Notes: generated by a model from the sequence alone, not told the origin. Counted from the first letter of the stretch, positions 17,344 through 55,827 are shown. The stretch is 64,000 nt of DNA from Anolis carolinensis (GCF_035594765.1 NC_085841.1:187969574-188033573); one strand, 5' to 3'. Numbers and translations: made by a program.

Positions 17344-18978
17344 CTTTTACATTCAGAATTCTGTTTGCAATAATGGACAGAGCCAGGGTGTATGTTGGAT
17401 TTTTTTTTTTAAGTAGTCAAAAATGGCGGAGTGACAGAGGAGTAATTGAGATAGTACCTGCCAAAATGAGGCAGTCAGGGTGTATGGTCTATCAATCTCT
17501 CCCAGCAAACTGCCTTATGGTCAACAGATTCCTTCTTTCTTCCTCTCTGCTTACAACAGCCCAGAGCAAATGGAGCAAAAATCTTTGCTCCAGTTATCTG
17601 CTAAAGTTGCTTGCAACGTTTCTGATGTACATAGTTGGATACCGACTGTAGTGACATTTAAGCCTCATCAGACTAAAAGTTAACTATGCAAGTGACTTAA
17701 TAACAATACTGTAGTTTGTTCCAAGCTAGAGGAGAGAAGGGATGGGTGGGTTTATTTTATTTTATTTTTTGCAAACCACAATTGGCGACGCTGTTGTTTC
17801 TTTGGCAAAACAGGGAATATTTATTCATTGTTCCTAAATTTGGAGGCCCTTTGGGAACACTTTTGGCAATATTTATATTTGTAAAAATAACATTTTTTGC
17901 AAGATGAAAATGACAGGAAACACTGAGCTGCTTTGTAAAAAGAAGTTGATAAAAATAACTTTGAAAAACAACATTCCAAATTCTGATAATGAGCTAAATG
18001 ACATGAGGGAGAAGCAGACTTGTGGCAGATTTATGTCTCTTGTAACAGAATTCTGAGTGTTAAATACATAGGGCCTGAAGGTCAGCAGATCTCTTTGCCA
18101 GGTAAGCGGCCTCATCCAAACTAAGCAAAGATCAGGTCCTCAGAATAGTGGCCAGGAGGCAAAGGTTGTCCAGAAGTAGGAGCGACTATGAGACGAATCT
18201 TTGTATTAAGACTCAAAATAGCTCAGGCAGAAGACCCAAATGGAGGGCCAGTGGGTCAAGTGGAGTTCTGCAATGTTCCCTTGGTCAGTCCCACATGAGC
18301 CTTTAATGGTGGCTCCTCTGAACAACACAATTTACCTAGTAGATCTTTAAAACAATGGTCTACTTCAGTGACGGTTGACAGTTTGCGACCCCATAAGCCT
18401 TACAGACCAACTATATAAGGTTTTAATCATATGATGTTTCTGACTTTTAACAAGTCACAGGAGCAACATCTATATATATAAAAGAGTGATGGCATCACGG
18501 CAATTCACAAAACAACAAAAGTACAGGCCCCCCAACCTCAAAATTTGACAACACAACCCATCATCCATGCCTCAAGGTTGATACAACAAAAAGAAAAGAA
18601 AAATAAAGTCCTAATTAGAGGGAGAGCAATAATTTTTTTTATCCAATTGCTGCCAGTTTAGAGGGCTAATCTCTGCCCACTTGGTTGCCTAGCAACCAAG
18701 GGACAGCCAGGTTTCAGTTAGGGGACAGGCAAATTTAGGCCTCACTGCGGCTTCTTCCACAGATTATCTAATTTGCACTGGATTATATGGCAGTGTAGAC
18801 TCAAGGCCCTTCAACACAGCTATATTACCCATTTATAATCTTATATTATCTGCTTTGCACTGGATTATCTTGACTCCACACTACCATATAATCCACTTCA
18901 GTGTGCATTTTATACAGCTGTGAAGAAGGAGCCTCATATAATCCAGTTCTAAACAGATAATATAAGATTAGAAATATA

Positions 18979-19630
18979 CAGTAGAGTCTCACTTATCCAA
19001 CGTAAACAGGCCGGCAGGATAAGTGAATATGTTGGATAATAAGAAGGGATTCAGGAAAAGCCAATTAAACATCAAATTAGGTAATCGTTATACAAATTAA
19101 GCACCAAAACATCATATTATACAACAAATTTGACAGAAAAAGTAGTTCCATGCGCAGTAATGCTATGTAGTATTTACAGTAGAGTCTCACTTATCCAACA
19201 CTCGCTTATCCAACGTTCTGGATTATCCAACGCATTTTTGTAGTCAATGCTTTCAATATATCGTGATATTTTGGTGCTAAATTCATAAATACAGTAATTA
19301 CTATATAGCACTACTGTGTACTGAATTACTTTTTCTGACAAATTTGTTGTCTAACATGATGTTTTGGTGCTTAATTTGTAAAATCATAACTTAATTTGAT
19401 GTTTAATAGGGTTATCCTTAATTCCTCATTATCCAACATATTCGCTTATCCAACGTTCTGCCGGCCCGTTTATGTTGGATAAGTGAGACTCTACTGTACT
19501 GTATTTACAAATTTACCACTAAAATATCACAATGAATTTAAAACACTGACTACTAAAACATTGATTATGAAAAGGCAGACTGCGTTGGATAATCCAGAAC
19601 ATTGTATAAGCGAATGTTGGATATGTGGGA
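18979..19630. mobile_element. pogo-type MITE with a second copy (19177-19496) nested inside in opposite orientation
   Basis: Inner copy has both TIRs and TA TSD; outer sequence resumes at 19499. Confidence 0.85.
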
Positions 19631-20066
19631 TTCTTCTTTAATATGAAATAATTACTGGGATAGAATAATGCAGAACAATATAATCTCTAAAACCAGGACA
19701 GTAAATAAACAGGGGAATCCCACACAGGAAACAATCAGGGCCAGCTAACACCTCCCAACAAAGTATTCCCATCATCAAAATCAGGCAAATCCTCTGTTTT
19801 CTCAGGGCCACAGACAGTAGAAGCACATAAAATATCGCAAACAACACCACTCTGAAAACAAGGGAATTCCAGACAGGAAACAATCAGGGCCAGCTAACAC
19901 CTCCCAACAAAAAAATTACTCAGGGAGGAAACAGCCAGGCTTTAAAGCTGCAAGGCCATTACATCCTAATCATTTTTCCTAATTGCAGCATTCATACTTG
20001 CCTCCAACAAACAAAAAAAAACCAATCAGAAATATTGTATATTCACAACCTTTAGGAAATAATATC

Positions 20067-20391
20067 CCCTGATGGCGCAGCATGTTAAAGCGCTGAGCTG
20101 CTGAACTTCTGGAACAAAGGCCACAGGTTTGAATTGGGGGAGCGGAGAGAGCCCCCACTGTTAGCCCCAGCTTCTGCCAACCCAGAAGTTCGAAAACATG
20201 CAAATGTGAGTGCATCAATAGGTACTGCTCCGGCGGGAAGGTAACACCGCTCCATGTAGTCATCCCACATGACCTTGGAGGAGTCTACGGACAACGCCGG
20301 CTCTTCGGCTTAGAAATGGAGATGAGCACCAACCCCCAGAGTCAGACATGACTGGACTTAATGTCTGGGGAAAACCTTTACCCTTGACCTT
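20067..20391 (+). mobile_element. Sauria SINE inside the Helitron
   Basis: Reverse complement of the 8672 copy, ACCTTT tail. Confidence 0.88.
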
Positions 20392-20632
20392 AACTACCAC
20401 CAATTCCTCAATACTTTATTTCCCAGACCACCAGACTTCGTCACAGCAACGCGTGGCCGGGCACAGCTAGTTATCATATAAGCAGAGAGCAAACACACAC
20501 GGATCAACTTCTAGGATAAGGGTTCCTGATTTTAATGCATATGCTATTTATGGGAGCTGATTTGTACTGCAATATCACTTATCTCTTTAGAAAATAAACC
20601 ACGCTATATACCACTCTAGACATCTATGTGCC

Positions 20633-20712
20633 TAGAATCATAGAGTTGGAAGAGACTTTGTGGGCCATCCAGTCCAACCCCCTGCCAAGAAGCAGGAAAA
20701 TCACATTCAAAG
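20633..20712 (-). mobile_element. CR1 3' tail fragment
   Basis: Reverse complement of 40675-40751. Confidence 0.8.
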
Positions 20713-21574
20713 TATTTAGTGCCTAGAATAGGACACTTAGTAGGAGAAAAGCTAAGCTGACAGGGCCTTGAATCCCAGTTAATACATTTGAGGCCAGGAT
20801 AGTTACTTTTCAACCCTGGGTCCTAATTTTCAGTCTTGTGTCATTGAAATGACATGAGATATGAGAAAGAGCTGCTCTCATCATATGCAGAGTGCTCTTC
20901 CTTTACCAATGAATAATCATTTCCAGCATATTTAAGACACTGAAGGGCTTCCTAAATAGGAATCATCTATATTTTTGGAGTTTTGAGGGCTGATCTCAGG
21001 ATCAACTCCTATTGTACGCAGGATTCAGTCCTAACACACACACACACAGCATACAGTTGCTGCCATCCCTCCCCTGTTTTTTTCCTTCCTGTCATTGCTT
21101 GTTAGGAACTAATCGTCTTGATCAGCTAAGCCAACTCATATGATTCATTTGGGATTTTGCTAAAGTGTTCAGTTGCTGAGTGTGATTATACCAGATTCCT
21201 CAGGAGGACATACCCAGGAGATGAGACACATCATTTCAAAACATCCCACAGGATTCAAGATAGCTCAGCTATTGCAAAACAGCGCAAGAAACTGCCATTC
21301 AAAGAGCACATTTGGAATACCTTTGCTAATTAGGATGGGGATCTGGCCAGCTTGCCCATCAGAGGTTGGCTGAGGGAGGGGGGAGCTAGCAAAGACACAA
21401 AATTTAAAACGTGGTTGCTTCATATTGGCCCATATACATTTGCATGGAGAAATGGGCCCACATCATCTATCACTTGATTCAGGAAGACCCGTTCACCTTA
21501 GCCTGCATGGTACTGTAATGCAATAATGGGACAGTGCTCAGCCATGGGGGAGAAAGTGCCTTCAGGGCACATTA

Positions 21575-21901
21575 AAGGTTAAGGTTTCCCCTGATGTTAA
21601 GTCTAGTTGTGTCTGACTCTGGGGGTTGGTGCTCAACTCCATTTCTAAGCCAAAGAGCCAGCGTTGTTAGTAGACACCTCCAAGGTCATGTGGCTGGCAT
21701 GACTGAATGGAATGCTGTTACCTTACCACTAGAGCAGTACCTATTGATCTACCCACATGTGCATGTTTTAAAACTGCTAAGTTGGCAGAAGCTGGGGCTC
21801 AGAGCAGGAGCTCACCCCGCTCCCTGGATTCAAACTGCCAAGCATTCGGTCAGCAAGTTCAGCAGCTCAGTGGTTTAACCCACTGCAGCACCGGCTGCTC
21901 C
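21575..21901 (-). mobile_element. Sauria SINE
   Basis: 12-bp TSD CAGGG(C/T)ACATTA. Confidence 0.9.
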
Positions 21902-22284
21902 CAGGGTACATTAGCCAATGGAATTGTGCCTTGAGTAAAATTTGAAGGAAAGAATCAGAGAAAAACTCACAGGAGCTTGCACATGTCTACTTAACATGTG
22001 ATGTCTCCGTCCTTTGGGAAAGGGGCCTCGATTAGGTCGCCTAATCCAGCAATTTGATTCCATGCTCAGTAAAATATAGCACAGGCTTTATTTTGTTTCG
22101 TTTCATTTGTGTTCCATCTTTCTCCCAGCATGAGACCCTTGATGCAGTTTCTCAAATTGTAGGACTTTCGACTCTTATTGTGATTTTTCTTCCTGGGCCT
22201 TGTGTCCCATCCCTCTTGGTTTAGCATTACACCAGCTCCAAAAAGCTGCAACTGTGAGATATCATTCCATTGACAAATGAACAA

Positions 22285-22576
22285 CACTATATAATGTATT
22301 TTTTGTTCCTGGGTTATAAATGTCATTTCCTAATTGGTTTTATCATAAAAACATGGGGAAAGTTTATTAAACTGCAAAAACTTTGTTTTTGCGGGGCATC
22401 CTACAGCACATTTTGCTATACATATTCAATGACTATATCTCATAGAGTCTCAACCAATTCAACATAGTTTGTGGCAGCCACCAAAATGAAGTATCAGAGT
22501 AAGTATTGCACAATGAAACAGGAAATAACACTTTCAAACCAGGAACAGAATTTTTTTTGAATGTTGTTACACAATG
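22285..22576. mobile_element. Non-autonomous DNA transposon, Chapaev3-like
   Basis: CACTATATAA terminus followed at the far end by TAA; inverted homologue at 28165-28460; superfamily tentative. Confidence 0.55.
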
Positions 22577-23399
22577 TAATTGTTTAGAACAGAGGTGGGG
22601 TTTATGTATTAGTCCTTCAGCTACTGATGGGCTGCAGCTCCCATCATCCTACACCTGGATCCCATCAGCTTGCAGAGATCCACACCATTTATACCCCCAG
22701 TTTTATGAAAGTCATCTTGAATACATTGCCTGAATTAACTGAAGGCACATAACAAAGCGTCAGCATATAATAGCCTTTTGTAAAGGTTAATGTCTTCTTA
22801 AAAATCCACATTTTCCCTCTCCATGCTCAGTGAACTGTATCAGTTCATCAGAGCAATTAGCTTTCAGATTTAGTTTTGTCTTAATCTGGATCAAGCAGTA
22901 ATGGGGAACAAAAATGGTCGTGTTTCTTGGTAGAGATCAATTTTCATAATTCTCCTGTCTTCAGGCACATTAGACAGATTCACCAAAAGAGCTTGATTGA
23001 TTACTCTGGAGATAGAGACAGCCTGGAGGAACAAATGCAAGTCATTAAAGGAATTCTGGCAGCGAGGTGTTAGAAGTCAAAATGGCAAGGGGGGTGTTTG
23101 GGTCAAACTTCAAGCGGCTATAATTTTTAAATTGCAAAGCTCAGGGATGCAAAACACTTTCCATATGAGGATTGGAGAAAAAGACGAAGAGTCTCAGCTA
23201 AGAAATGAGATGGCTAAGGTGGTGCTGGGACTGAATGAGCAATGTTTAACTGACAGTGCCAAGCAGGTTGGAAAGAGGAAACACTGTGTGTTGTGATACA
23301 TTCATATGGAAGATTTAAAACAGAGCAAAGGAATGCTTTTCATCCAGCACAATATTAACCCAGGAGTCCAAGGTTTTCTGCCATTAAAAATGGATCCAG

Positions 23400-23828
23400 T
23401 TCCTGGAATGTAGGACTTGATGTTGACAGAAGACAAGAAAAAATACTGGAGGTCTTTGGGGAAAATTCACCTTGATTTGGGGGAGTTGTAGTTCATCTAC
23501 ATCCAGAGAGCACTGTGAACCCAAACACCGATGGATCTGGACCAAACTTGGCACACAGAACTCCCATGATTTGCTCAGCCTGCTGGTGGGGTTTGAGGGG
23601 ACTGGCTCACCGCAGTGGGAGTTGTACTTTACCCTACAGCCAGAGAGCACACTGAATTCCATCAATAATGCATCTACAGCAAACATACCCAACATAACTT
23701 TAAGTATTGGTGGAGTTTCTCGGGGTTAATCTGACATGATGTGTAGTTCATCCACAACCTTTTGCATTTTGTACAATTAAAAACGGACTTTTTCAAATAA
23801 CCCAGGCAATGCTGGGTGCCCAAGCTAG
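23400..23828 (+). mobile_element. Helitron 3' portion of a second family (5' boundary uncertain)
   Basis: CCCAG-gcaatg-CTGGG hairpin then CTAG|T at 23828. Confidence 0.65.
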
Positions 23829-24240
23829 TAAATAATGCACATGGCATTCTGTGATCCTCCAGATTTGATCATCGAAAAAGGCCACCATCTCGCATAGAAT
23901 TTCTCAGTCTCCAGATAACCATCATGTAACCAGTCTGGAGGTTGTCAGGCTGACACTAGAAGCTTTTGAAGCTCTGTCCAAAGCATTACAACTTGGCAGG
24001 TTTGATTTAAACATTTCAGTTTGGCAGAGGTTTTAGGTCTTATGTAAACTTGTAGGAGTTTAGAATAGCCTTTTCTTTTAAAAAATGTTGTTTGCTTTTC
24101 ATTTAACCGAATAATTAAGTACTGGAATGCTAGGTCTGTGTAGCAGCTGCATTGCATAATATGTATATTTGAAATTGCAACCCAGCTCAAGTATTCACAG
24201 AGGTAATCAGGAATGGGATGCAGAGCAAAATGAAGGTATT

Positions 24241-24413
24241 GTCAAAGGCTTTCATAGCTGGAATCACTGATGTGTTGTGTGGTTTCTGGGCTGTATGGCC
24301 GTGTTCTAGCAGCATTTGATGCTCTGAAGACACCAGTCACAGATGCAGCTGGAACGTCAGAAGAAAATGCTGCTAGAACACAGCCATACACCTCGGAAAC
24401 CACACAACACCTA
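24241..24413. mobile_element. Short Penelope-derived fold-back insertion
   Basis: 14-bp TSD AAAATGAAGGTATT; internal inverted repeat. Confidence 0.8.
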
Positions 24414-24434
24414 AAAATGAAGGTATTACAATAA

Positions 24435-26175
24435 TCTATATATATAAAATGGTAATAGAATCCCGGCACTGAGCAAAACAACAAAACTACATATCCCACA
24501 ACCTCAAAATTTGCCAGCACAACCCCTCATCCCTGCCTCTGGGTTCATATAACAAAAATAAACAACAGGAACCACCACAGGGCCTAAAAACAAAAACGCT
24601 CCATGTGCGCCTCCGCCACAACGAACCCCAGGCACGGAGAGAACAACCCCCACCCCTCCCCTCAACAGGCGCTCCCGCGCGCTCCCCTATTCCTGCTCCG
24701 AGGCACCGCAACCAAGAAAAACCTCACCCAGCGGCCCTCAACATGGCACCAGGGAGGAGGGACCAGCAAGGCCTACACAGTGCCCCCCACCGCCGCCCTC
24801 CCCCCGGCGAGGCCTGGCCGGGACTGGGGCCGGGGGACGTGGCCAGGAGAGGGCCGGGAGGCCAGGCCTCCTCCCCGGCCACCCTCCTCCGGGATGACCT
24901 CCTCCTCATGGTCATCAGGGAAAGAGAGCGAGGTGGGAGGGAGGGAGGGAGGGGCCTTGCCCACGTCGCCCCCTCAAACAGGCACACCGAGGCCACGGAG
25001 GGGCGGGGGCCAGAAGGGAAGCAGGAAGAGTTCTCCCTCCATTACTTTCAGTTTCTCCTCCTCTACACCTCAATTCCAATACAGTAAAGTCTCACTTATC
25101 CAACATTCTGGATTATCCAACACAATTTGGTAGTCAATGTTTTAAATATATCGTGATATTTTGGTGCTACATTTGTAAATACAGTAATTACTACATAGCA
25201 TTACTGCCTATTGAACTACTTTTTCTGTCAAATTTCTTGTATTGCATTATGTTTTGGTGCTTAATTTGTAAAATCATAACCTCATTTAATGTTTAATAGG
25301 CTTTTCCTTAATCCCTCCTTATTATCCAACATATTTGCTTATCCAACATTCTGCAGGCCCGTTTATGTTGGATAAGTGAGACTCTACTGTAAAAACAATC
25401 ACAACCACAACAATAATCATCAACAACTTCACAGGCAAGAACCACCCAGGCACTGAAGCTGCAAGGCAACATTCACACTTGACCTCCAAACAGACAATAC
25501 AGTAGAGTCTCACTTAGCCAAGCTTCACTTATCCAAGCCAGTCTGCCATTTAGTAGTCAATGTTTTCGAATTACATGTTGCAATGTTTGCGTGCTACATT
25601 CCTAAGAACAGTAATTAATACATAACATTACTTTATATCATATGTAATAATTACTATGGTCTAATAAGAAAACAGAACAATAGAATCTCTAAAATCAGGA
25701 CACAAAATACAAAACAACACTCAAAAGACAGGGACATTCCAAACACGGGAATTCCACACAGGAAACAATCAGGCCCAGCTAACACCTCCCAACAAAGGAT
25801 TCCGTCAACCAGGAAACAGCCAGGCCTTGAATCTCCAGGGCCATTCAATACATTCAAAACGTAACTAATTGCAACCTTCATACTTCCTGCACTCAGACTA
25901 TTCATTGCTATTCAACCTGCCCAACCAACAATTCCACAAGGTAGAAAGCGGCCAGGCTTCAAAGCACCAACACTATTCACTCCTCTTCAACCTCTCAAAC
26001 CAATATTTCCCCTACATAAAAAACCCTCACATTTGGAAGCCATCACACCACTCCGTCCCATTCAACCAGCCAAAGCAAGGAGGCCCATACATAGAAAGCA
26101 CCCAGGCTTGGAAGCAGCGAGGCGATTCAGTGGAATTCTAAATGGCCACAGCAACGCGTGGCAGGGCACAGCTAG
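24435..26175 (+). mobile_element. Non-autonomous Helitron, 1741 bp, with GC-rich cargo, pogo MITEs (25082-25389, 25500-25640) and Penelope-derived repeats
   Basis: A|TCTATATATATAAAA...GCCACagcaacgcGTGGCagggcacagCTAG|T. Confidence 0.9.
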
Positions 26176-26970
26176 TATAATATAATATCTTTATTCTTAT
26201 ATCCTGCCACCATCTCCCCAAAGGGACTTGGGCTGGCTTACATAAGGCACAAGGTTCTTAAAAAATAGAGCATAAAATCGACACAATATAAAATACAACT
26301 GAATAAAATATATGTAAAAAGCAACATAAAACTCAGATTAAAACAGTGCTCATCCATCAATGGTGGTTAATGTAAACATGGCCAGGCTGTAAACAATAGG
26401 GCAAGGGAATGGGAATAAGTGCAAAGCTATAACCGTGAGACGAGCATGGGATGAAATGCAATGCTGCATAATAATTTCGTTGATCAGCTAGGGACTATTC
26501 CCTCTCCCAATTGGGATTTTCCCCATACAAAGGAATTTTAACAGAGACACTGAAAATCATTCATATCAAGGCATCTTCTCTTTACTGTGTTTGTATTCCC
26601 ATGACGATGTTGTCTTCTCACTTTGCTTTGGATGCATGAACTATTTCTAAATTGAAAATGAACTTTGAAGTTCCTGTAAAACAGAACAAATCTGGGAGTA
26701 AAGTAAAATTTCATTTGATGAGTAGAATTGTTACTTAGGATGACAATAGCTTCATACTGCCACTCCCTACAACTACATCCCTAATAAAGTGGTGGATGGC
26801 ATCAGTGCAAACCAGGGCATGGCAGGAGTTGCAGTATTTTCCAACTCTGTATTTTCTGTGGAATCAGAAAAAGGAGAGGGAATGAGAGCTACATAGGGTA
26901 TGAATCTGGGGTAGCTTATGAGTTGATATAAGCTGTTTATTTTACCAAAACTTCACTTCCTTGTAGATGC

Positions 26971-27078
26971 AAGGCCTAAATACCCAAAAGGCACCACAAA
27001 CCTATCTGACCTAGGAAACTAAGCAGAGTAATCTCTAGTTTGTACTTGGGAGACTGCCGGTGAATACCAGGTTCTGTA
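26971..27078 (+). pseudogene. Degenerate 5S rRNA-derived sequence (pseudogene or 5S-SINE head)
   Basis: tctgacctaggaaactaagcagagt...gtacttgggagactgccggtgaataccaggttctgta aligns by eye to vertebrate 5S with a small deletion. Confidence 0.75.
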
Positions 27079-30789: not shown

Positions 30790-31153
30790 GATGCATCTAC
30801 ACCAATGGTTCACAACCTGGAGTCCCCAGATGTTTTTGGCCTACAACTCTTAGAAATCCCAGCCAGTTTGCCAGCTGTTAGGATTTCTGGGAGTTGAAGG
30901 ACAAAAACGCCTGGGGACCCTAGATTGAGAACCACTGATCTACACTATATAATTTAATGCAGTTTGATGCCACTGGAACTGCCATGGCCCAATGCAATGG
31001 AATCCTGGGATTAGTCATTTGGTCAGAGGCACGAGCACTTTGGCAGGGAAGACTAAAAGATCTGTAAAACCACAATTCCCAGGATTCCATAGTATTGAGC
31101 CACAGCAGTTAAAGTGGTGTCCAACTGCATTAATTTTGCAGTGTAGATACACT
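30790..31153. mobile_element. Palindromic Harbinger-like MITE with a hAT MITE (30803-30937) nested in its left TIR
   Basis: Inner element has 8-bp TSD ATCTACAC; outer TIR gatgcatctacac/gtgtagatacac; relatives near 57690-57958 and 60775-60905. Confidence 0.78.
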
Positions 31154-32671: not shown

Positions 32672-35006
32672 CAGAGCCGGCCCTAGGAAATTTTCAAGTA
32701 CAGGCGAACAGAATTTTGGCGCCCCCCCCCCCCCCCCAAAACCAATCACTGAAAAACAAAAGCGCTGGATAAGCAAAAATGTTGGATAATAAGGAGGGAT
32801 TAAGGAAAAGCCTATTAAACATCAAATTACGTTATGATTTTACAAATTAAGCACCAAAACATCATGTTATACAACAAATTAACAGAAAAAGCAGTTCAAT
32901 ACATGGTAATGTTATGTAGGAATTACTATATTTGCGAATTTAACACCAAACATTGAACTGGGATATAGGGCAGTGTGGACTTAGATAACCCAGTTCAAAG
33001 CAGATATTTTGGGTTATTCTGCCTTGATATTCTGGGTTATATGGCTGTGTGACAGCTACTCATAAATTCCCACCCCCATGCGTCCTACACATTCTGAGAA
33101 TCTGCTGGAATTCTATGAAATGATCAAATGATGATGCATTACTTGAAATATGTAGTATTTATGCTTTTCTAAATGTACACAGAATTATTTTCCAGCAAAG
33201 ATGCAACAGTAAGTGCACTTACCTACCAGGCATGGGCAAACACTGGCCCCCCAGGTGTTTTGGACTACAACTCCCACAATTCCTAACAGCCTCAAGCCCC
33301 TTGCTTTCCCCCCTTAGCCATTTAAGCTAAGGGGTAAAACCTGGACACAGTATATTATTTGAGAACATAGAAATGCTGGACCACTCTCACAACCACCATG
33401 TCAGACAACAGAGAAGTCATTGAAATCCACAAGCATGTGGACAATTCCAACAGAAGGGAGGAACCCATGACAATGAAGAGTATCTGGCTACCAGTATTTA
33501 AAAACTCAGGACAGTAAATAAAGAACAACACACACAAAAACAGAGGAATTCCAGACATGAATCAATCAGGGGCAGCTCGCACCTCCCAACAAAGGATTCC
33601 CTCAAATAGGAAGCAGCCAGGCTTTGAAGCTGCAAGGCTATTCAGTGCTAATCAAGGTGGCCTATTGCAACATTCACACTTGCCTCCAGCAGACAAGAGT
33701 TCTTTCTCTTCCAACCTGGACTTCCAACAAATAATTAAGCCCCACTTCCCTAGTTTCGAACAGACCTCACAACCTCTGAGGATGCTTGCCATAGATGTGG
33801 GCGAAACATCAGGAGAGATTGCTTCTGAAACATGGCAATACAGACTGGGAAACCCACAGCAAACCAGTGTTTCTGGCCATGAAAGCTTTTGACAACAGGT
33901 TCCAGAAGTATTCTCTCCTGATTGATTAACACCTCCCAACAAAGGATTCCCTCAAGCAGGAAACAGCCAGGCTTTGAAGCTGCAAGGCTTTTCAATGCTA
34001 ATCAAGGTGATTAATGGCAACAGTCACACTGGCCTCCAACAAACAGACAAGAGTTCTTTCCAGGGCTGGATTTTGTGGTTTTCTTCATGGGGTTGGACTA
34101 GATGTCCTTTGGGGTTCCCCCTTTCCAATCTAAGATACTTTCAGGAGCTAATGCAAAGCCTTTGGAGTCTTTTTGGGATTGTTTACATTCAAAAATGGGG
34201 GAATCTCCATCTCTCTTCCCATAGTAAATCCCAATATTATGTATATATGTGTGTATATGTATGTATGTATATACACACACACACACATTGCAAACAAAAG
34301 GATCACCCTCATGTATGTTGCAAAGGGAAAAGAGAAAGAGCAGCAGGTAGTAGGAATGGTTGGGAGGAAAGAGAACAGAGAGAGGGCCCAAAGGAAAAAG
34401 GATCCAAGGCCCCAAGGCCTGGTCCCTCTTCCAACAACAACAATAAACCCCGTTAGCAAAGGCCCCCCGCCCCCCCCCCCCCAAGCAAAACAAGCCCCTT
34501 AAATGGACTCACAAATAGAAAAATACTTACTAAAATGGGAAGGCAGTGAGTGGGTTACAGTGGCTTGGCTTCTCCCCACACTCCCTCGCTCCTTTCCCCC
34601 TTCTCCCTTCTCCCTTTCCCCCCAATCCCACTGCTTGCTTTACAGGGGAGGCAAAAGGATCAAAGGGACCCAAGCCAGCTCCACGTGGAGCCTGATTCCT
34701 TCTGTTTGGCTGCTGCAAGGCAAGTTGCAGCCAAGGGGGGGGGGGGGGGGGGGGAGGTGCTGGGCTTCTCAGTCTGCAAACTGCCCAACATCCTCCTTCT
34801 CCAGAGGGAGCTGCTGGGTGCTTTGCAGACTGGAGAAGTGCTGTTTCACTCTGCAAACGGCCCGACGTCTTCCTTCTGGGGAGGAAGGCACTGGGCTCTG
34901 CAGGGCAGAGGCACAGCAGCGGAGGCAGGAGTTGCCTTGATGGCGCCCCCTACAGGATGGCGCCACAGGCAAATGACTAGTTTGCCTCTCGGTTGAACCG
35001 TCACTG
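32672..35006. mobile_element. Composite non-autonomous hAT element, 2335 bp
   Basis: CAGAGCCGG...CCGTCACTG imperfect TIR, subterminal TGGCGCCCC motifs at both ends, ATGATGAT on both flanks; left end homologous to the 41261-41487 element. Confidence 0.75.
33350..33895 (+). mobile_element. Penelope-like element 3' fragment (GIY-YIG endonuclease C-terminus + terminal repeat)
   Basis: ILFENIEMLDHSHNHHVRQQREVIEIHKHVDNSNRREE resembles the PLE endonuclease end (R..RE.IEI....N.NR). Confidence 0.78.
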
Positions 35007-45709: not shown

Positions 45710-45737
<28 letters not shown>

Positions 45738-45943: not shown

Positions 45944-47629
45944 CAGGTTAATTCAGCATGGAATGCTGCCACTTCCACGGCATGGAATATGGTGGTGTCC
46001 TTGGTAGAATTACTAAATTGATATATTTGCTTCTGCAGATGCGTCTTTTCGTAGATGTATCTTGCAATAAGTAGTAATGGTGTAGTGATGTATTTCTTGC
46101 TCTATGGGCAAAGAGACTTCTTGTGTAGGTCGCGACACATAGATTGCCTCCCCACAATACAGGAAAACAGTATTGGTACATACTGTGAAGGTTCCTTTTT
46201 TGCAGTTGTGGGGAGGGAATCCTTCTCATCCTGACTGATTATGATTTTCATTTTGGTACTCCTGGGTATATGTTTACTTTTTCTTGTTTGTCCAGAGCTG
46301 TGTTATTTCATCATTGAGAAAAGGGGCTGGCTCTCCCAGTTAGAGTAGAAATAATAATTGTTATTAAACAAAGTCATGCCTATGAGGCGCATGGGAGGAC
46401 AAGGCAGTATGAGTTCCTTCCCCACAACTGAAGTAAGTTAGTAATGTTTTGATCATACCGTTAGTAAACCACAATTGTCCAAGTGACAAAAGAAGAAACA
46501 CGAAGTCATGTCTGTCCTACTAAAATATGTGAGAAGTTATGTATCTAGAGCTGTTCAGAGCATAGTGAGTTAATATTGGATGTACATTTTCTCCAAAGCT
46601 TTAATACAATTTTATGTGGTAAGAAAACTAGCAGGCATTTCATGCAAAACATTACTTTTTAAACTGTTGCTGAACTTACATATTCTTTCGTCTTCTGTTG
46701 ATATTTCAGTCAGCACTTCAGAATTAATGTCCTTCAGATGTGCCAGATCAAGAGGAATAGAAATTTAAATTCTTAGCTGGAGCATAAATTGGAGGCAAAT
46801 TAGGCATGGAAATTTGGCAACTCAAGATACTGTTTGCTTCATTGTAGGGGGCTATCTTACAGTCTTTGACTCTTTTATACTAAAGCAGAACCACAGAGAA
46901 ATTATTTGAGAAAAGCAGAAAGAAAATCTTACAGAGAGAGAATTTCAAGATTTAGGTGACATTGTCTAGATTCATGCCTCCAAGCAAAGGAGAGTAGTTG
47001 AATATGGGGATTGCATTACTCCCTCTGGGAGATGAGATGCCCTACGTATTATCCTATTCAGTTGCACCCATTAAGACCCAAAGTTAACACTGGTCATAGC
47101 TACATACTCCAAGTAGAAAATGTACATCATCCATTGCTTAATGGACAGGTGATTGTAGTACTGTAACTACACACAAATGCATTTCACAGATGTCAACTGT
47201 AGAATTTTGTGGAGCTTATAGTCAGCTTCCATTAATGTTATATCAAACCCACAATAATTTCCAGTGTATTTCTCCACCCCCCCCCCCCCACAAAAAATTA
47301 TTCCCACCCCTTTGGAATTATATTTATGAATCTTAGCCTGTATTTTTATACAATTTAAGTTGTTTATTGATTGACTCGTATGCTGCCTTTTTCACATAGT
47401 ATAACCATAGTAAGCTAATATCCCAAATGGATACCAGGAAATCACAAGCAGCCCTTGGCCAGACCTTGTACTCAACAGGACGAACCAATGGTTAAGCTAT
47501 TTGGCCAGAAATGGAAAAGAAAAGCACATGATCATATATTTTGGCAAATGGTAGATTTGCATGAAGCCCAAAGGAGTGGATCAATGACAAATCTCCCTCC
47601 AGAGAGATGGAGGCGGCATAGAAATATAA

Positions 47630-47632
<3 letters not shown>

Positions 47633-47660
<28 letters not shown>

Positions 47661-47682
47661 CTAGTAGTAGTAGTAGTTGTTG

Positions 47683-47722
<40 letters not shown>
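47633..47722. repeat. Compound (TAG)n(TTG)n(TTA)n microsatellite
   Basis: Direct reading. Confidence 0.95.
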
Positions 47723-47723
<1 letters not shown>

Positions 47724-47794
47724 AGTTAGGATCCCAAATAGGCACAAACTGATATGATGACACTGAGGTTGACTAAGAACCAGTGTATTCTAGA

Positions 47795-48614
47795 CAGGGC
47801 CGGCCCCACTAATGAGGCACCTGACACCGCCGCCTCGGGCGCAGGCCCGGGGGGGCGCCGTCAGGCTGGGCGGGAGGCGGGGCACCGCCCTGACGGTGCC
47901 CCGCCTCCCGCCCAGTGCGCCCTGGCCCGTCTGGTCTTTTCTAGTAGGCCAGACTTCAGCGGAGGTCCATGCAGGCCGCAATCGCGGCCTGCAGGGACCT
48001 CCGCTGCAGTCTGGCCTGCTAGAAAAGGCCAGACGGGCGAGTGGGAGTAGAGTGGGAGGCGGAGCCAGCTCTGACGCCGCCCCCCCCCGCCCAGCGTGCC
48101 CTGGCCCCGCCTCCCACGTTGCGTGGGAGGCAGGGCCAAGGCACGCTGGGCGGGGGGGGGGGGGAGCGGCGTCAGAGCTGGCCCCGCCTCCCACGCTACT
48201 CCCGCTCGCCCGTCTGGCCGTTTCTAGCAGGCCAGACTTCAGCGGAGGTCCCTCCAGGCCGCAATCGCGGCCTGGAGGGACCTCCGCTGAAGTCTGGCCT
48301 GCTAGAAACGGCCAGACAGGCGAGCGGGAGTAGCGTGGGAGGCGGGGCCAGCTCTGGCCCCGCCCCCCGCCCAGCGTGCCCTGGCCCCGCCTCCCACGCT
48401 GCGTGGGAGGCGGGGCCAGGGCACGCTGGGCGGGGGGCGGGGGCAACTCTGGCCCCGCCCCCCTCACTATTCGCCCTGGCCCCGCCTCCCACGCAGCGTG
48501 GGAGGCGGGGCCAGGGCACGCTGGGCGGGGCCAGGGCGCGGGAGGCGGGGCCGGTGGCGGGGGCGCTTTTCAGCGCCCCCGCTTCACACCAAAAAATATC
48601 TCCGGCCGGCCCTG
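47795..48614. mobile_element. GC-rich non-autonomous hAT element, 820 bp
   Basis: TIR CAGGGCCGGCC; perfect 8-bp TSD ATTCTAGA. Confidence 0.92.
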
Positions 48615-48623
48615 ATTCTAGAT

Positions 48624-48754
48624 CAGTGGTTCTCAACCTGTGGATCCCCAGGTGTTTTGGCCTACAACTTTCAGAAATCCCAGTTTATCAGCTGTTAGGA
48701 TTTCTGGGAGTTAAAAGCCAAAGTATCTGGGGATCCACAGGCTGAGAACCACTA
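48624..48754. mobile_element. hAT-type palindromic MITE
   Basis: Same family as 3293. Confidence 0.88.
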
Positions 48755-48774
48755 TTCTACTAGTTAGAGAGTTA

Positions 48775-48898
48775 GGCTGGATCTACGCTGCCCTGTCTCC
48801 CAGGTTATCTGCTTATCCCAGATTATTTGGAAGTGTAAACTCATATAATCCAGTTCAAAGCAGATAGATCCTGGGATATAGGCAGTGTAGATCCAGCC
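48775..48898. mobile_element. PIF/Harbinger-type MITE
   Basis: TIR GGCTGGATCTAC, TTA TSD. Confidence 0.85.
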
Positions 48899-49329
48899 TT
48901 ACATTCAGATTAAGGAAATCATCAGTCTTATCTCTTCATCAGAGGTAGAGAGTTGGGCTCCATTTTTGTTTGATTGGGAAATCTCTCTGAGAAATCACCA
49001 GAGTTTTGCATTTTTTGTCAAGGCTTCTATGTTTTTAACAGTTGCATGACAAGGACACATTCTGCAGCCAGTGAAGCTTTCCTCATCACTGTATCCATGT
49101 GCTAGTAAAACCTCACCTGTAACTCTGTACATGACTTCTCTGCAATGAGGGCAGGTTATATGCATACCAATGTTGCAGAAGGACTAGATTTCTGCTCTAT
49201 GTACGTCTGCTATTTCCAGAAGCCTCTTGCATGATGGGCACCTTGCATGCCCTGAGCCAGATCTAAGGTAGATAAGACACTAGTGGGGAACACTTCTTTT
49301 TCTAACCATCTCCTTCAATTCTCTTTCAG

Positions 49330-49634
49330 ACTACTTGGGCCTGTCGAGAAACAATACATTGTTTTCAACCAACTCCCCACTAACCCCAAAAGTGGACAAG
49401 GAGAAGAGCTGGCTGTACACCCTGGACCCTATCCTGGTCACCATCATAACTATGAGTTCCCTGGGGGTTCTCCTCGGGGCCATTTGTGCCGGCCTCTTGC
49501 TGTACTGTACCTGCTCCTATGCTGGCCTGTCCTCTCGGAGCTCCACTACCCTGGAGAATTACAATTTTGAGCTTTATGACGGCATCAAACACAAGGTCAA
49601 AATGAACCACCAAAAGTGTTGCTCTGAGGCATGA
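49330..49634 (+). CDS. NRP2: Neuropilin-2 isoform a terminal coding exon (TM helix, cytoplasmic tail, SEA PDZ ligand)
   Basis: ttctctttcag acceptor; (D)YLGLSRNNTLFSTNSPLTPKVDKEKSWLYTLDPILVTIITMSSLGVLLGAICAGLLLYCTCSYAGLSSRSSTTLENYNFELYDGIKHKVKMNHQKCCSEA*. Confidence 0.98.
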
Positions 49635-52288
49635 CTGATTGCACCAGAATCGCATTTGACATTTCATTCCAGCAAGAGTGGCTGGTGAAGATTACTTTTT
49701 ATATGGGAACTGAATGCCATAATCTTACACAAGCCGGGGCTGGAATACTGAAGTGGGGAGGGGTCCCTGCCAGGCCTCTTTATTGCAAATGAAGAAGACG
49801 ATGACAAAGAAGAAGAAGCCAGGCATAAGTTCTGAGCTGCAAAAACTATGGCTAATTGTTTTCATGGGAGGAACTGGGTCGAGCAAAGCAAATGGGGGCT
49901 GCAATGCTTTACTTTTTATGTCTTATATGAGCCGATCTGATCCAGAAGAGTCCAAGCGTTTGGCTTGCATTCAAGAAGTGGGGAACAAAATGTTGATCAT
50001 TATTTTCCACTTCCTTTCTCCGAAGGGATGGGAGAGAACTCCAGAGAGCTTCTCTCACTTGCACCTCCATTCTGGTGGCCCTTCTATCTTTAGAAATTAC
50101 ACATCTTCACACACATACAGAGCCCATCCAACCGACTGCCATTCAGAAAAGCTCCTTGATTTTTAAGGGATTTGTTCTTTGCTGTAGGTTATATAAGTCT
50201 GAGAAGCAGCGACTTCTAGGACCCAAGTGAAAGAGTGTTGTTGCCTTTTCCTTTTCTGATCTGGAAGGGTCGAGCGAGGGGGGGAGGTTATTAAGCTTAT
50301 AGGTCAATGGGAGCAGCAGCGCTTTCTTTCCAGATTACAAAGCAAAGGAGAAAAGGCAGCCTGAGGTGTGAGAGTCGACAGAAGCACCTCCTCGAGAGAA
50401 GCTGAAGAGCCTTAAAGTGATTTGTGAATAAGAGCCATTTATTAAATCCAGATCTTGGATTGAAACAGCAGAGGCCTTTATCACCAGGGCTCTTTCTTTT
50501 ACTTTTCTTTCAGTCCCTTTATAAAAAAATCCCTCTACAATCCTTTTTATTATAGGAAAATTGCAGCAAACAAAAGACACAATTATAAGATGCCCAAGAA
50601 CTCAGGAGATGGCTTTTTGTATGCTTCAAGAGAAAGACAGGCTGCTATATATAAATATATTTTTGTTAATGCTGTGGCCACTCTCGCTCTGATGGAGAAG
50701 AATAGAATCAAGAGGAGGGAGTAGAATGAACATAGTGATCCAGCCCACTGCAGACTCTTCTCGTGGGCAGGACTGGATTTCTTCATTAGCTGATGCTAAG
50801 GGCTGAACTCCGCAAAGGGTTATTGACATTGCGTGGCCTTTGAACAAATTGTATGACATCCTATGGCCTAGACCCGATAGCCGATGAAAGCATAACTTCT
50901 TTGCAGAGTCAGGTTCTTAGATGGGACTCAACAAATCCAAACCCAACAATAACAATATTATGGCAACATTGCAGGGTATCAAATCTTAGCTGATATTCTA
51001 GTGTAGAGATCGAATAAAAGGTCTGGAACAGTCTGTTGTCAACTTCTTATCCCTTCCGAACAAGTTGCTTCATTGTGATTTGAAAAGCAACTTGTTCATT
51101 ACTGAAGGGTTTGTTTGTGTATGTGTGTGTATGCGTGTATTTTTTTCTTTGATCAAGTGCCTTAGAAAAATATTTTTCCCCTTTACATAGAGACTTGTGA
51201 TGTATAAACCTACAAGGGAGGCATTCACCCTTTCCCCTATTCTTCTTCTTTTCGTCATCATCATCATCGTGTTCTTCATATTATCTTTATCATCATTGGA
51301 TCTCTACTGGGTAGAGTTTTGGCCTTTCCAGTGGTCAGATATATTTCTAATGCTGTCACTTGTACTGCTGTGCCATGCTTGAAGTGTGTTGCAGACCAGT
51401 AAAAGAAACGTTTACAAATGCCAAGTTTTGACCTCCAATGCCTTTTATTCCAGCTCTTGGCAATCTTCAAGCCACTTGCTTAGGAGAACTCAGAGTGACT
51501 GCTTTGTAGGGGCAGTCTTCAGACTAAGCAGAAGGGATTTTCAGTGAAATTTCAACTATTTATGGTCATTTGAGGAGTGACACCTAACAGCCTTGTAGTA
51601 AACATTTTGCTGGTATACTTTTGTCACATTCACATCATCTCATGTCTTGTGATGTTCCATTGGCATAAGTATTGATATGCTCTCTGCTAGATGTATATGT
51701 CAAATAAATGAGCATGCCTTGGGGCTACTTTACATATTACCCATTCTAGAAGTGCACTTCAAAATTCTAATATGTGAGCATAACAGACATATCTTGATGG
51801 ACATGTGATATACTTGTATGCATGTCTATGGACAGAGGATTTGCTGTGGCCCCTTATCAAGTGTACACTGGCTAGTAATGTGTAAATGGTCATATGTAAT
51901 GTGTTGCCCCCGAGCAGGTTTGTTTGCATGCTTTCCATGCCAGCCATCCCTCTCTTTTGGCATGTGCATTGCACCTCGCCATGTATTAAGCATTTATTTC
52001 CAGTAGTATGCCACAATCCAACACAGAGTTAGCCGAAACACTTAGGTGCCCACTGATATCAAAATACTTAACTCTGTGATGAATCATGGCCTTAACACAG
52101 TGTACAGGTTTTCACACTGTACTCGGTGTGACCCTGGGATTCCTGAGAACAGATAAGGAGTTTGGGATTAACATCCGTAAGCATGATAGACCAACTGTCT
52201 TATGGAATACATGCCTCAAACAAATTGAGAATATGCTCTACGTATAGAAAAATGCAGAGCATATTCTGAAAAACTACTGGCTATATTG

Positions 52289-52423
52289 CAGTGGTTCTCA
52301 ACCTGTGGGTCCCTAGGTGTTTTGGCCTACAACTCTCAGAAATCCCAGCCAATTTACTATCTATTAAGATTTCTGGAAGTTGAAGGCCAAAAACATCTGG
52401 CGACCCCAGGTTGAGAACCACTG
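52289..52423. mobile_element. hAT-type palindromic MITE in the NRP2a 3'UTR
   Basis: TSD CTATA(T/C)TG. Confidence 0.9.
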
Positions 52424-52428
52424 CTATA

Positions 52429-52764
52429 CTGGTTGATCATCCCTTATCTGGAATTTCAAAATTCCAAGTACCCCAGAATTATTCAGATCGGTTGTTGAGA
52501 TAGTGACATTTTTGCTTTCTGATGTTCAGTGTGCACAAACTTGATTTAATGCACAAAAATATATTTAAAATCATTGTATAAAATAACCATCAAGCTATGT
52601 GTATAAGGAGTACATCAAACATAAATCAATTTCATGTTTAGACTTGGTCCCCATTGTCAAGATAACTCATTATGTAAGGATATACAAATGTAGATATTCC
52701 AAAATCTGAAAAATTCCAAAGCCCTTCTTCTCCAAAGCATTTCAAATAAGGGATACTCAACCTG
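52429..52764. mobile_element. Tigger-like MITE in the NRP2a 3'UTR
   Basis: TIR ~CAGGTTGAGTATCCCTTAT, TA flanks; inverted relative at 61202-61365. Confidence 0.75.
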
Positions 52765-54480
52765 TACCTCCACCTACCATTCTTAAAAGCAACAGCAGCA
52801 ATGGGAGCCTTTAGTTTGTTCTAGAGGAGGTGTGTGGAACATAAGGTTCAACAGATATTACTGATCTACCGACAGTTGCCATTTCTGGCCACTGGCCACT
52901 CTGGCAGAAACTGAGTGGAGTTGGGCTCCATCCAATGACATCTATTGGACCTCATGCTCTCAGTCGCTATACATAGAGCATATTCTCAATTTATTTGTAG
53001 GCAAGGCTGGCATGTATTCCATAAGCCAGTTGTTTCCTGTAAATTGGCCATAAGCTCCAAACTCCTGAGCAAGAAACCCACGGTAGACCTTCAGGAAGCT
53101 TCTTGATAGAAGCTGTGGTAGGAAATATTTCTTGATGGTGGAACGCTTAGAAAAACACAGTCTGAAAACTGCCCTACTTTCCAGCCCTCTAGAAACTACA
53201 CCATCCAAGTGCCCCTTGATAAACAGAGAGTTCTATATCAAGTTTATGTCATATATAAGCACATCCTCTCCCCTCTCCCGCCTGCCCCAATTTTGAAGGA
53301 ACTCAAAGCATAATCATCAATTTTACAGGGTCATTTTGAAGACACTTGCTGCTACTGTCCTGAAAGGAAGGGCCCCAACTCAGCCAAAGTTAACTGTGTG
53401 TACATCTCATAGATTTCGATGGGAGGGTTCAGCATGGGCTTACCTCTGGCTGGATTGCGTCCCGACCTTATTTCTCTTAACATTTGTGTGACGGATGAAG
53501 GAGGACAGGCTGTATCTGCGAAGGTCACCTGGATAGGAGTAATAGATATATTAAAAAGTAATGTTGCTGTCTATAGTAGACATACAGAGGGAGTGGAGTT
53601 CGTGTATGCATATATTTCAATACATATGTGTTTGCGCGTGCTTGTGAGTTCTCTGTATGTATTATATATGTGAGTGGTTATGTGGGACTACTTGTATTCT
53701 TGAATGGGAGGCCAGAGAATTCTACTGCCCTTTGTGTGAATTTTAACAGGGGGTCGAGCGCAAAACACCAGCATCGTGAAACCAACTCCCTCTGGAGAAC
53801 GTCCTGTCCTTTGCATGCCACATTGGTGGCCATGGGGCTTGGCTGTATGCACTCCAAGGAGCAGAATCGGGCCATAATGCTGCATAGCGGATACCTCACT
53901 TACCTCTCTGCTGGGTGCTTTACTGTTTTAATGCAGAAAACTGTGTTTGATTGTATTTTTAACAGGGCAAGGAAACAAAAAAAAAAAACCCTACTAGTGC
54001 GTATATATTCATATCAGTACGTCTTCATCAGCAAATACATATGTTAGATTTGATTATCTGTGTTCTTCGGAGAGTTTTTCCCCTTTCCAAAATACACACA
54101 CAAAAATCCTACCCTCTGGCCTTGCTAACGCCTTTGTTGAAATATGTGTTGTTCCCTCTTACCCCCTCTCAAGGTCATCTTAGTTTAGGTGGACAGGGCC
54201 TTGCAGTGTCCTCTGGTCCTTGCAATTGTAGGGAGGTGTAGACATTAACAATGAAGCATGGGGATCTTTCAAAAAAGAAGATCCCACTGGGAAAATAAAT
54301 GAATGCAGGAAATAGAATTTCTCACATTTTTACCAGCTCATGGTCGTTCAACCATTTACTGGCAGAGCCAGGTCATGTGGACTTTAAAGCTTTTACTGTG
54401 ATTCTTCTGTGTTTAAAGAAAAGACAAACTCAAAACTGTGTTTCTATGATTTGTACAAAAGCCTTTTAAAATTACTATTT

Positions 54481-54486
54481 AATAAA
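54481..54486 (+). terminator. Likely distal NRP2a polyadenylation signal
   Basis: AATAAA with upstream TGTA (54452) and downstream U-rich tract. Confidence 0.75.
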
Positions 54487-54883
54487 CATTATAGTAGAGA
54501 TCTTTCTCTTCTAGTTCGTTTTTTTTTCTCCAGTTAAGATAACTTTATGGTTTTGTTAATCCAATCCAGGAAAAGAGATCTGTGTTTCGAAGAGGAAAGC
54601 TTGCATACATGGAATAGAAGTGGGAGAAAGTGTACATGTTCCTAATCTTCACAAACCTTTGAATGAACAGGATGTGATTTTTGAGCAAATCATGGTCCTC
54701 ATCTTCACCAAAGCTTGGTTTTTTTAAAAAAATGTTGGCGCCTATGGATTTTAAAATCTGCAGGCAGAATGTAGATTCTAGGATGTGTAGTCCACAAAGA
54801 AATTTTATTCTTCTCCCCACCCAGTTACTAATTGTGTCTCATTTGCACACAGAAGGAACTGAATCATGATCTGAACCTATATA

Positions 54884-55202
54884 CAGTAGAGTCTCACTTA
54901 TCCAACACTCGCTTATCCAGTGTTCTGGATTATCCAACGCATTTTTGTAGTCAATGTTTTCAATACATTGTGATATTTTGGTGCTAAATTCGTAAATACA
55001 GTAATTACTACATAGCATTACTGCATATTGAACTACTTTTTCTGTCAAATTTGTATAACATGATGTTTTGATGCTTAATTTGTAAAATCATAATCTAATT
55101 TGATTTTAATAGGCTTTTCCTTAATCCCTCCTTATTATCCAACATATTTGCTTATCCAACGTTCTGCCAGCCTGTTTATGTTGGATAAGTAAGACTCTAC
55201 TG
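54884..55202. mobile_element. Tc1/pogo-type MITE
   Basis: TIR CAGTAGAGTCTCACTTATCCAAC, TA TSD. Confidence 0.92.
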
Positions 55203-55602
55203 TATCTGCAATCATTGTAACATTCAATATATAGGCAGTTCCCGAGTTACAAACATTGGACTTACAAACTACTCAGAACAGGAATGAGACCACAGGAATT
55301 GAGAGAAATGTATCCCTCAGGAGGGAAATTCACTCCTGAAAGAGTTATCATGGGAAAAGGGAATCTCCCCTGAAGCTTTCTCTCACTGATCCTTGTTTCT
55401 ACAACAAAACAAATCCAATTATCACAGGGACAGAAAGTGCAGTGAAATCTTCTGAACAGGGGCACAAACATCAAAACAAACACCACAGGGGTGTTAACCC
55501 TTCCCTGTGCTATCCAAAGCCTATACATACATACATACACACACACATACACTCCCTTAATATTAGATACTTATAGGCAGTCCCCAAGTTACAAACAACA
55601 TA

Positions 55603-55827
55603 TCTATATATAAAAAAGAGTAATGGAATCCTGGCACCGAGCAAAACAATAAAACTAAACACCCCCTAACTTCGAAATTTCACAACACAATCCATCATCT
55701 ACGCCTCGAGGTTGAAACCACAAAATATCACGTCACAAACCTCCACAGGGCCTAAAAAAACCCAAAAACCGGAGCTATTCAGTGCAATTCCAATGGGCCA
55801 CAGCAACACGTGGCAGGGCACAGCTAG
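55603..55827 (+). mobile_element. Minimal 225-bp Helitron
   Basis: A|TCTATATATAAAAAAGAG...GCCACagcaacacGTGGCagggcacagCTAG|T. Confidence 0.9.

What the first reader, a model, noticed from the sequence alone, without database searches (positions are those of the whole stretch)
18469..55827. One Helitron chassis, three cargo loads (225, 1741, 2002 bp)
Seen: copies at 18469, 24435 and 55603 share ~120-170 bp of 5' sequence and the 3' hairpin+CTAG, all in A|T targets without TSD. The 225-bp copy is empty; the others hold largely different interiors (Harbinger and pogo MITEs, Penelope pieces, a Sauria SINE, a GC-rich segment). Established: Helitrons capture DNA by rolling-circle transposition. Inference: a shuttle that co-amplifies other TEs and host DNA and would be mis-annotated as many independent insertions.
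Basis: partly seen in the sequence, partly recalled or inferred. Interest (0 to 1): 0.7.

Follow-up and report, generated by a model that had tools for sequence, protein, structure and literature searches.

The report
Lizard Helitrons carrying passenger transposons
These three pieces of lizard DNA belong to three multi-copy rolling-circle transposon (Helitron) families; the two long ones are copied together with fragments of other transposons, which likely got in mostly by jumping into an already mobile element, and the largest is likely a family described in 2011.

Summary
Observation confirmed. All three elements have TC...CTAG ends, a 3' hairpin, A|T targets and no duplication. Each is a genome-wide family: family-specific junctions occur 4,703 (A, 2002 bp), 36 (B, 1741 bp) and 170 (C, 225 bp) times, in unrelated flanks. 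So loaded elements do move as units. Intact RepHel partners with the same 3' end exist.

Where cargo can be traced it entered by nested insertion: relatives lacking B's MITE, A's inner MITE or A's SINE exist, the MITEs sit in TA duplications, and one passenger left an excision footprint. C is not an empty ancestor; it keeps a Penelope remnant, so it is likely a deletion product. No host donor was found for the GC-rich part. A census of 56 ends shows many more than three loads.

A matches published Helitron-2N3_AC by length, copy number, divergence and cargo; B, its precursor B0 and C match no row of that paper's table.

Side result: old cargo in some lineages has lost G from the Helitron top strand (G>C 23/172 vs C>G 4/317); controls are symmetric, other Helitron parts show none.

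The parts
18469..20470 (+). Element A: non-autonomous composite Helitron, 2002 bp, likely Helitron-2N3_AC
   Evidence: 39 of 40 scored hits end to end at 96-98%; junction 4,703 times
18469..18596 (+). A 5' terminal region shared with B, C and autonomous copies
   Evidence: 87% to autonomous L120 over 122 bp
18760..18936 (.).
   Evidence: matches free copies at window 4934, 48774, 61507
18979..19640 (-). Outer, older TA-target MITE, split by the inner MITE
   Evidence: uninterrupted in relative L126
19177..19496 (+). Inner TA-target MITE with TA on both sides
   Evidence: absent from L126 (single TA); TA-CAG-TA footprint in L161
19641..20060 (+). Penelope-like pieces with an internal duplication
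   Evidence: last part shared with autonomous L113-L115
20067..20390 (+). SINE (recalled as Sauria SINE), nearly full length
   Evidence: about 80% to free copies; absent from relative L125; same insertion in autonomous L113-L115 and L221
20391..20470 (+). A right end: subterminal stretch, hairpin, CTAG
   Evidence: last 29 bases 100% identical to autonomous L113-L115
24435..26175 (+). Element B: non-autonomous composite Helitron, 1741 bp (family majority 1763 bp)
   Evidence: 32 of 40 scored hits end to end at 90-100%; junction 36 times
24600..25060 (.). GC-rich segment of unknown origin
   Evidence: all 23 further hits fetched lie inside B or B0 copies; no hit in 325 kb background
25082..25389 (+). 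TA-target MITE that turned family B0 into family B
   Evidence: empty site with a single TA in B0 copies; B nested inside B0 on the tree
25392..26144 (+). Penelope-like pieces and an old MITE fragment (25500-25638)
26140..26175 (+). B hairpin and CTAG
55603..55827 (+). Element C: 225-bp non-autonomous Helitron, likely an internal-deletion product of a B0-like element
   Evidence: 40 of 40 scored hits near full length at 95-100%; junction 170 times; bases 1-167 and 172-225 match B0 at 77% and 96%
55774..55797 (+). Penelope-like remnant in C
   Evidence: alignment with B0, B and a Penelope piece

Best explanation
A, B and C are members of three separately amplified non-autonomous families of one Helitron clan, each copied whole with its contents into A|T sites, likely by the RepHel transposase of the few intact copies that share their 3' end. 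The contents likely built up stepwise: MITEs, a SINE and even another Helitron inserted into an element that was already mobile, the loaded copy became the founder of a new burst, and internal deletions that spare the first ~125 and last ~31 bases made the short families such as C. Shown: unit copying, pre-insertion relatives, TA duplications, shared ends with intact RepHel copies. Inferred: which enzyme moved them, the order of events, the deletion origin of C, and the origin of the Penelope and GC-rich parts.
For: Unit copying; junction counts 4,703 / 36 / 170 with 0 in reversed controls; A|T in 79 of 90 copies; flanks unrelated except 5 pairs that share a neighbouring Helitron end. Partner: three 7.2-7.7 kb copies with 1381-1511 aa frames, PF14214 and PF05970 far over cut-off in the two scanned, HUH and tyrosine motifs, last 29 bases identical to A. 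Nested insertion: B0 lacks the MITE and has one TA; 13 of 13 further GC-rich hits were B0 type; B is one clade inside B0; L126 lacks A's inner MITE, L161 has an excision footprint; L125 lacks the SINE; the same reverse Helitron sits at the same base of B at two loci with different flanks. Deletion: C remnant; 38 of 56 census elements are 449-574 bp and keep A-like ends.
Against: The SINE site has no clear target duplication. No pre-insertion state was found for the Penelope pieces, the Harbinger-like piece or the GC-rich segment, so about half of the cargo is untraced. Autonomous L113-L115 hold an inner copy of A's subterminal stretch, which fits end-bypass or recombination rather than plain deletion. 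L125 could be a recombinant. Search hits are the best 40 only, so divergences are biased low.
Confidence: 0.8

Rival explanations
1. Cargo was captured by rolling-circle read-through (end bypass) or gap filling from flanking host DNA that happened to hold old transposon pieces.
For: Established for bat Helitrons (PMC4224331 section 15; PMC4778049 passages). Head-to-tail neighbours are common (10 of 90 copies have another end within 60 bp; an A copy directly precedes autonomous L221). An inner copy of a subterminal stretch lies in L113-L115. The GC-rich segment has no transposon match.
Against: TA duplications, empty-site relatives and an excision footprint for the MITEs. No donor among 23 fetched GC-rich hits. 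The putative eroded terminator in L114 scored no better than 11% of other windows, and no clear inner 5' end was found.
Confidence: 0.15
2. The three copies are empty Helitrons into which other elements inserted locally at this locus; junctions are single-copy.
For: Single-copy nested insertions do occur in some copies (L098; L147 and L157).
Against: Junction counts of 4,703, 36 and 170; end-to-end copies on many contigs.
Confidence: 0.01
3. The copies spread by segmental duplication or inside a larger element, not by Helitron transposition.
For: None found.
Against: Similarity stops at TC and CTAG in the 90 copies inspected, flanks differ, 79 of 90 are in A|T.
Confidence: 0.01

Closest known systems
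Helitron-2N3_AC of Anolis carolinensis (Novick et al., PMC3014272; abstract, Table 2 rows and the Helitron subsection seen, supplements not available)
   Same: 2,000 bp, more than 1,000 copies, pairwise divergence 1.98%, holds Poseidon (Penelope) and SINE pieces. A: 2002 bp, 4,703 junctions, pairwise 1.86%.
   Different: No sequence comparison was possible; Helitron-2N5_AC is also 2,000 bp. The paper names no MITE cargo, calls 2N3 the only composite Helitron family and all families deletions of autonomous copies. Here B, B0 and B+D are composite too, autonomous copies carry SINE and MITE pieces themselves, and no table row has the length of B (1763), B0 (about 1470) or C (225).
Bat Helibat / Helraiser Helitrons (PMC4224331, PMC4778049, PMC5876387; passages seen)
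   Same: TC and CTAG ends, 3' hairpin, AT target, AT-rich 3' flank, RepHel partner; carry retrotransposons, DNA transposons and nested retrocopies that were then amplified.
   Different: No host gene piece was shown here. The 3' flank preference is sharper (TATA at +4 to +13 in 55 of 69 sites vs 6% of control AT sites).
hobo_AC composite hAT families of the anole (PMC3014272, passages seen)
   Same: Non-autonomous elements that carry Penelope, SINE and other pieces and raise their copy number; one such element lies in this window at 32672-35006.
   Different: Cut-and-paste element with terminal inverted repeats and an 8-bp duplication; its cargo shows no G/C strand bias.

Membership tests
Helitron (canonical) | 5' TC and 3' CTRR ends, no terminal inverted repeats | tested here: met
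Helitron (canonical) | Short GC-rich hairpin near the 3' end | tested here: met
   stem ending 13 bases before the end, -2.0 / -5.9 / -4.6 kcal/mol for A / B / C with DNA parameters; weak in the window's A copy, no shuffle control run
Helitron (canonical) | Insertion between A and T without target duplication | tested here: met
   79 of 90 copies A|T; 55 of 69 non-tandem intact copies have no overlap at all, the rest mostly 1-4 bases of AT-rich sequence
Helitron (canonical) | RepHel-encoding partner with matching ends | tested here: met
   L113-L115, L120, L116/L119
Helitron (canonical) | Transposition through a peeled plus strand and circles | not testable with these tools
   known for Helraiser (PMC5876387 passages); inferred here
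One family by the 80% rule (PMC2997563 passages) | 3' end over 80% alike (family), 5' end over 80% alike (subfamily) | tested here: met
   3' 27-29 of 30; 5' 24-25 of 30 for window copies, 25-27 of 30 for family majorities, so borderline at the 5' end
Helitron-2N3_AC | Length about 2,000 bp, over 1,000 copies, about 2% divergence, Poseidon and SINE cargo | tested here: met
   element A
Helitron-2N3_AC | Sequence identity to the published consensus | not testable with these tools
   no supplement held; no repeat library
Tc1/mariner-type (pogo-like) MITE cargo | Inverted ends, TA duplication, excision footprint | tested here: met
   the label pogo is recalled
Harbinger MITE cargo | Harbinger-type inverted ends and 3-bp duplication | tested here: inconclusive
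   palindromic repeat with free copies but ends eroded in A
End-bypass capture product | Donor locus without Helitron ends, or inner remnant of an earlier 3' end | tested here: inconclusive
   no donor; inner subterminal copy in L114 but terminator remnant not significant

The most novel reading that the evidence does not exclude
Rolling-circle copying itself mutates what Helitrons carry: repeated rounds strip G (to C and A, less to T) and turn some A to C on the element's top strand, as expected if uracil or abasic sites on the template strand are bypassed by translesion synthesis. Captured transposon pieces with known free ancestors would then act as an odometer of transposition rounds: one SINE insertion lost 43% of its non-CpG G in the autonomous lineage but 6% in family A.
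Probability: 0.4. Interest if true: 0.7.

Novelty: new member of a known kind. Interest (0 to 1): 0.42.

Why it matters
For annotation: about 4,700 SINE copies and, if most A copies are full length, about twice as many MITE pieces (up to roughly 9 Mb, 0.5% of the genome) are Helitron passengers. Counting them as independent insertions inflates and misdates SINE, MITE and Penelope activity. For transposon biology: the stepwise series (B0 to B to B+D; pre-MITE, pre-SINE and post-excision relatives of A) shows cargo entering by nested insertion, and contradicts the published remark that only one anole Helitron family is composite. The strand-biased G loss, if caused by transposition, would be a directly testable window on the intermediates of Helitron copying. 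The core phenomenon is known.

Tried and rejected
Empty sites in other animals: contigs of 7 runs were laid. No joint skipping the whole element was among those listed, but thousands of repeat joints were cut from view. Contigs of three samples end 23 and 18 bases inside A at its two junctions, under the 31 needed to count as bridging. Organism B holds A-like interior pieces; its contigs do not cross this site. No verdict.

Donor for the GC-rich segment: two searches (169 and 206 candidates, 40 scored each); 23 hits fetched, all B or B0 copies. Unscored candidates remain. Its reading frames look like low-complexity noise and copies differ by indels; not searched against protein libraries. Rfam gave only a sub-threshold hit outside the elements.

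Penelope strand-bias test: only 6 free pieces and 14 usable sites, uninformative. The window's Penelope at 33501 proved to be hAT cargo, not a free copy.

Eroded inner terminator in L114: not significant.

Per-insertion G>C excess in A: weak in the first 30 copies (15 vs 8, p=0.057), absent in 26 more (7 vs 14); rejected.

L161 first taken as a pre-insertion form; it is an excision footprint. One alignment row (L089) was the wrong stretch and was ignored. L119 duplicates L116 (99.8% with flanks) and was not counted separately.

Full report
1. Observation. The window holds three elements that begin TC and end CTAG: A 18469-20470, B 24435-26175, C 55603-55827. They share 123-163 bp of 5' sequence at 75-81% and the last ~30 bases at 90-97%. 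A hairpin ends 13 bases before CTAG. The genome is 1.85 Gb; repeat content and the match to PMC3014272 suggest an anole lizard (inference).

2. Each is a genome-wide family. Searching the own genome gave 39 of 40 scored hits end to end for A (96-98%), 32 of 40 for B (90-100%) and 40 of 40 near full length for C; each count includes the window copy. In the 90 loci fetched, similarity stops at the termini, 79 of 90 lie in A|T, and flanks match up to the junction in only 5 pairs, all with a neighbouring Helitron end. Whole-genome pattern counts with one mismatch: A's Penelope-side/SINE junction 4,703, B's GC-rich/MITE junction 36, C's deletion junction 170, reversed controls 0. The A count includes shorter derivatives that keep this junction. 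Pairwise divergence among the 30 best copies: A 1.9%, B 2.7%, C 3.4% (biased low). The common 29-base end occurs 15,108 times exactly.

3. More than three loads. I fetched 40 stretches around the first listed ends on contig C1 (0-1.8 Mb) and recovered 56 elements of 176-2330 bp: 3 full A, one longer A variant, one A without its inner MITE, 2 of a family D with tandem 5' repeats, 38 of 449-574 bp, no B or C. The nearest upstream 5' end was taken, so a few lengths may be wrong, and the sample is one contig end.

4. The motor. PF14214 found 26 matches; 12 were fetched with flanks. L113-L115 are 7.2-7.7 kb elements in A|T sites with frames of 1511, 1484 and 1381 aa; the two scanned have Helitron_like_N and PIF1 far over cut-off and L113 shows HUH and tyrosine motifs (patterns recalled). 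Their last 29 bases equal A's. Broken relatives (L120, L116, L122) share the ends; L120's first 30 bases equal A's. The 5' non-coding parts of these lineages differ and carry their own SINE or MITE pieces. That these enzymes moved A, B and C is inferred.

5. How cargo entered. B: five of ten weaker GC-rich hits were a ~1470-bp family B0 without the 308-bp MITE, with one TA where B has two; a sixth (L093) was a partial B0 with another insertion there. Thirteen of 13 further hits were B0 type. On a tree of 30 B and 16 B0 copies, B is one clade inside B0 (rooted on the two most distant B0 copies, support values not examined). At two loci with different flanks the same reverse-oriented Helitron D sits at the same base of B, so a Helitron-in-Helitron was copied as a unit. 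A: L126 has the outer MITE intact with a single TA; L161 has TA-CAG-TA, the footprint left when a Tc1/mariner-type element excises (footprint rule recalled). L125 lacks the SINE but keeps both flanks, without a clear duplication. The same SINE insertion, with both flanks, is in autonomous L113-L115 and L221. Whether A came from such a copy by deletion or the autonomous lineage took up an A-like right part is open: L114 holds an inner copy of the subterminal stretch, but the terminator remnant is not significant. C: bases 1-167 and 172-225 match B0, including a Penelope-like remnant that runs up to the terminal 31 bases, so C is likely a deletion product. Untraced: Penelope pieces, the Harbinger-like piece, the GC-rich segment.

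6. Target. In 69 of 90 copies (intact ends, not in tandem) TATA lies at +4 to +13 downstream in 55, against 6.3% of 9,889 control AT sites. This echoes the element's own 5' end and may explain head-to-tail insertion (inference). An AT-rich 3' flank is known for Helraiser (PMC4778049 passages).

7. Side result: strand-biased G loss. Against a majority of 13 free SINEs (2 Helitron-borne hits dropped), the SINE in L114 lost 27 of 62 non-CpG G but 7 of 56 C on the Helitron top strand (G>A 11, G>C 11, G>T 5); free SINEs lost 47 of 808 and 48 of 729. L113-L115 are one lineage, not three tests. On the stem shared by L114 and L221, 19 of 25 changes are G losses; on A's own branch 1 of 6. An oppositely oriented SINE piece in L120 lost 9 of 20 G vs 3 of 25 C, and a reverse MITE in L127 17 of 49 vs 2 of 36, so the bias follows the Helitron strand. 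On the B0/B tree, internal branches show G>C 23 of 172 sites vs C>G 4 of 317, G>A 21 vs C>T 20, A>C 20 of 366 vs T>G 3 of 216; most G>C events lie in the Penelope/MITE part. RepHel fourfold sites are 53% A, 21% C, 7% G, 19% T. Controls: free SINEs, free MITEs and the hAT composite show no G/C bias, though the hAT composite shows a mild A>C excess, which weakens that part. Against: no significant bias in eight other MITE pieces in Helitrons, in the first 229 or 430 bases of the A clan beyond one p=0.04 cell, in RepHel substitutions for G, or in private changes of A copies. So the bias is real in some lineages and not universal. Best mechanism (inferred): uracil or abasic sites on the template strand bypassed during repeated copying; uracil-abasic bypass is a known source of such changes (10.64898/2026.08.21.746158, abstract only), and the plus strand is the one peeled off in Helraiser (PMC5876387 passages). 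Rivals: damage to the single-stranded top strand, transcription, or selection against hairpins. Five searches listed no paper on this bias in Helitrons; PMC9099904 and 10.64898/2026.08.08.743475 (passages) treat other biases. The library lacks most subscription papers. An earlier unreviewed note of this scan reports the same kind of bias elsewhere in this genome; I had measured it before reading that, and it is not independent support.

8. What is known. PMC3014272 (abstract, passages, Table 2 rows, Helitron subsection) lists Helitron-2N3_AC: 2,000 bp, over 1,000 copies, 1.98% divergence, Poseidon and SINE pieces, called the only composite Helitron family; it cites Piskurek 2009 (not seen) for capture. 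A fits it; the consensus could not be compared and unseen supplements or repeat databases may already hold B, B0, C and D. Searches for anole composites; PMC3899998 passages added nothing. Bat Helitrons that amplify nested retrocopies and transposons are described (PMC4224331).

9. Verdict. Real and well supported, mostly known. New detail: further composite families, a stepwise nested-insertion history, and a lineage-specific strand bias worth a dedicated test. Interest 0.42.

Noticed in passing
window 32672-35006: A non-autonomous hAT (hobo-like, label from PMC3014272) composite with an 8-bp target duplication, carrying MITE and Penelope pieces; 18 other loci match its left 1.4 kb at 96-99%, and the window copy lacks about 1.2 kb that they hold.
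   Followed up: partly
L113:230-7885, L114:386-7631, L115:443-7686: Three near-identical autonomous Helitrons with long open RepHel frames; candidates for the recent source of transposase.
   Followed up: partly
L099:3235-4980, L100:514-2437, L129:165-2394, L151: Family D: 1.7-2.2 kb Helitrons whose 5' ~137 bp is repeated in tandem many times; only 11% G on the top strand; 1924 bp copy is close to the published 1,930-bp Helitron-2N2_AC.
   Followed up: partly
L161:1745-1760: Excision footprint of the passenger MITE inside an A-family copy: the passenger was still mobile after loading.
   Followed up: yes
L221:1-454 and 455 onward; G000:C1:8951040 and 8953042: Head-to-tail Helitron arrays, including an A copy directly before an autonomous-type copy, and A junctions 2002 bp apart.
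   Followed up: no
L117, L118, L124: A second, distant RepHel family (about 65% DNA identity) with different ends; its fourfold sites are also G-poor (8%).
   Followed up: no
L127:2239-3800, L152: A-related elements with extra tandem copies of the Penelope unit (five in L127), suggesting slippage or recombination inside the cargo.
   Followed up: no
L116 and L119: The same 9.8-kb stretch with flanks at 99.8% on a chromosome-scale contig and a 10-kb contig; likely an assembly duplicate.
   Followed up: no
window 3285-3435, 15147-15298, 30795-30945, 48617-48765, 52284-52434, 59455-59603: Six copies of a ~150-bp palindromic MITE unrelated to the three elements.
   Followed up: no
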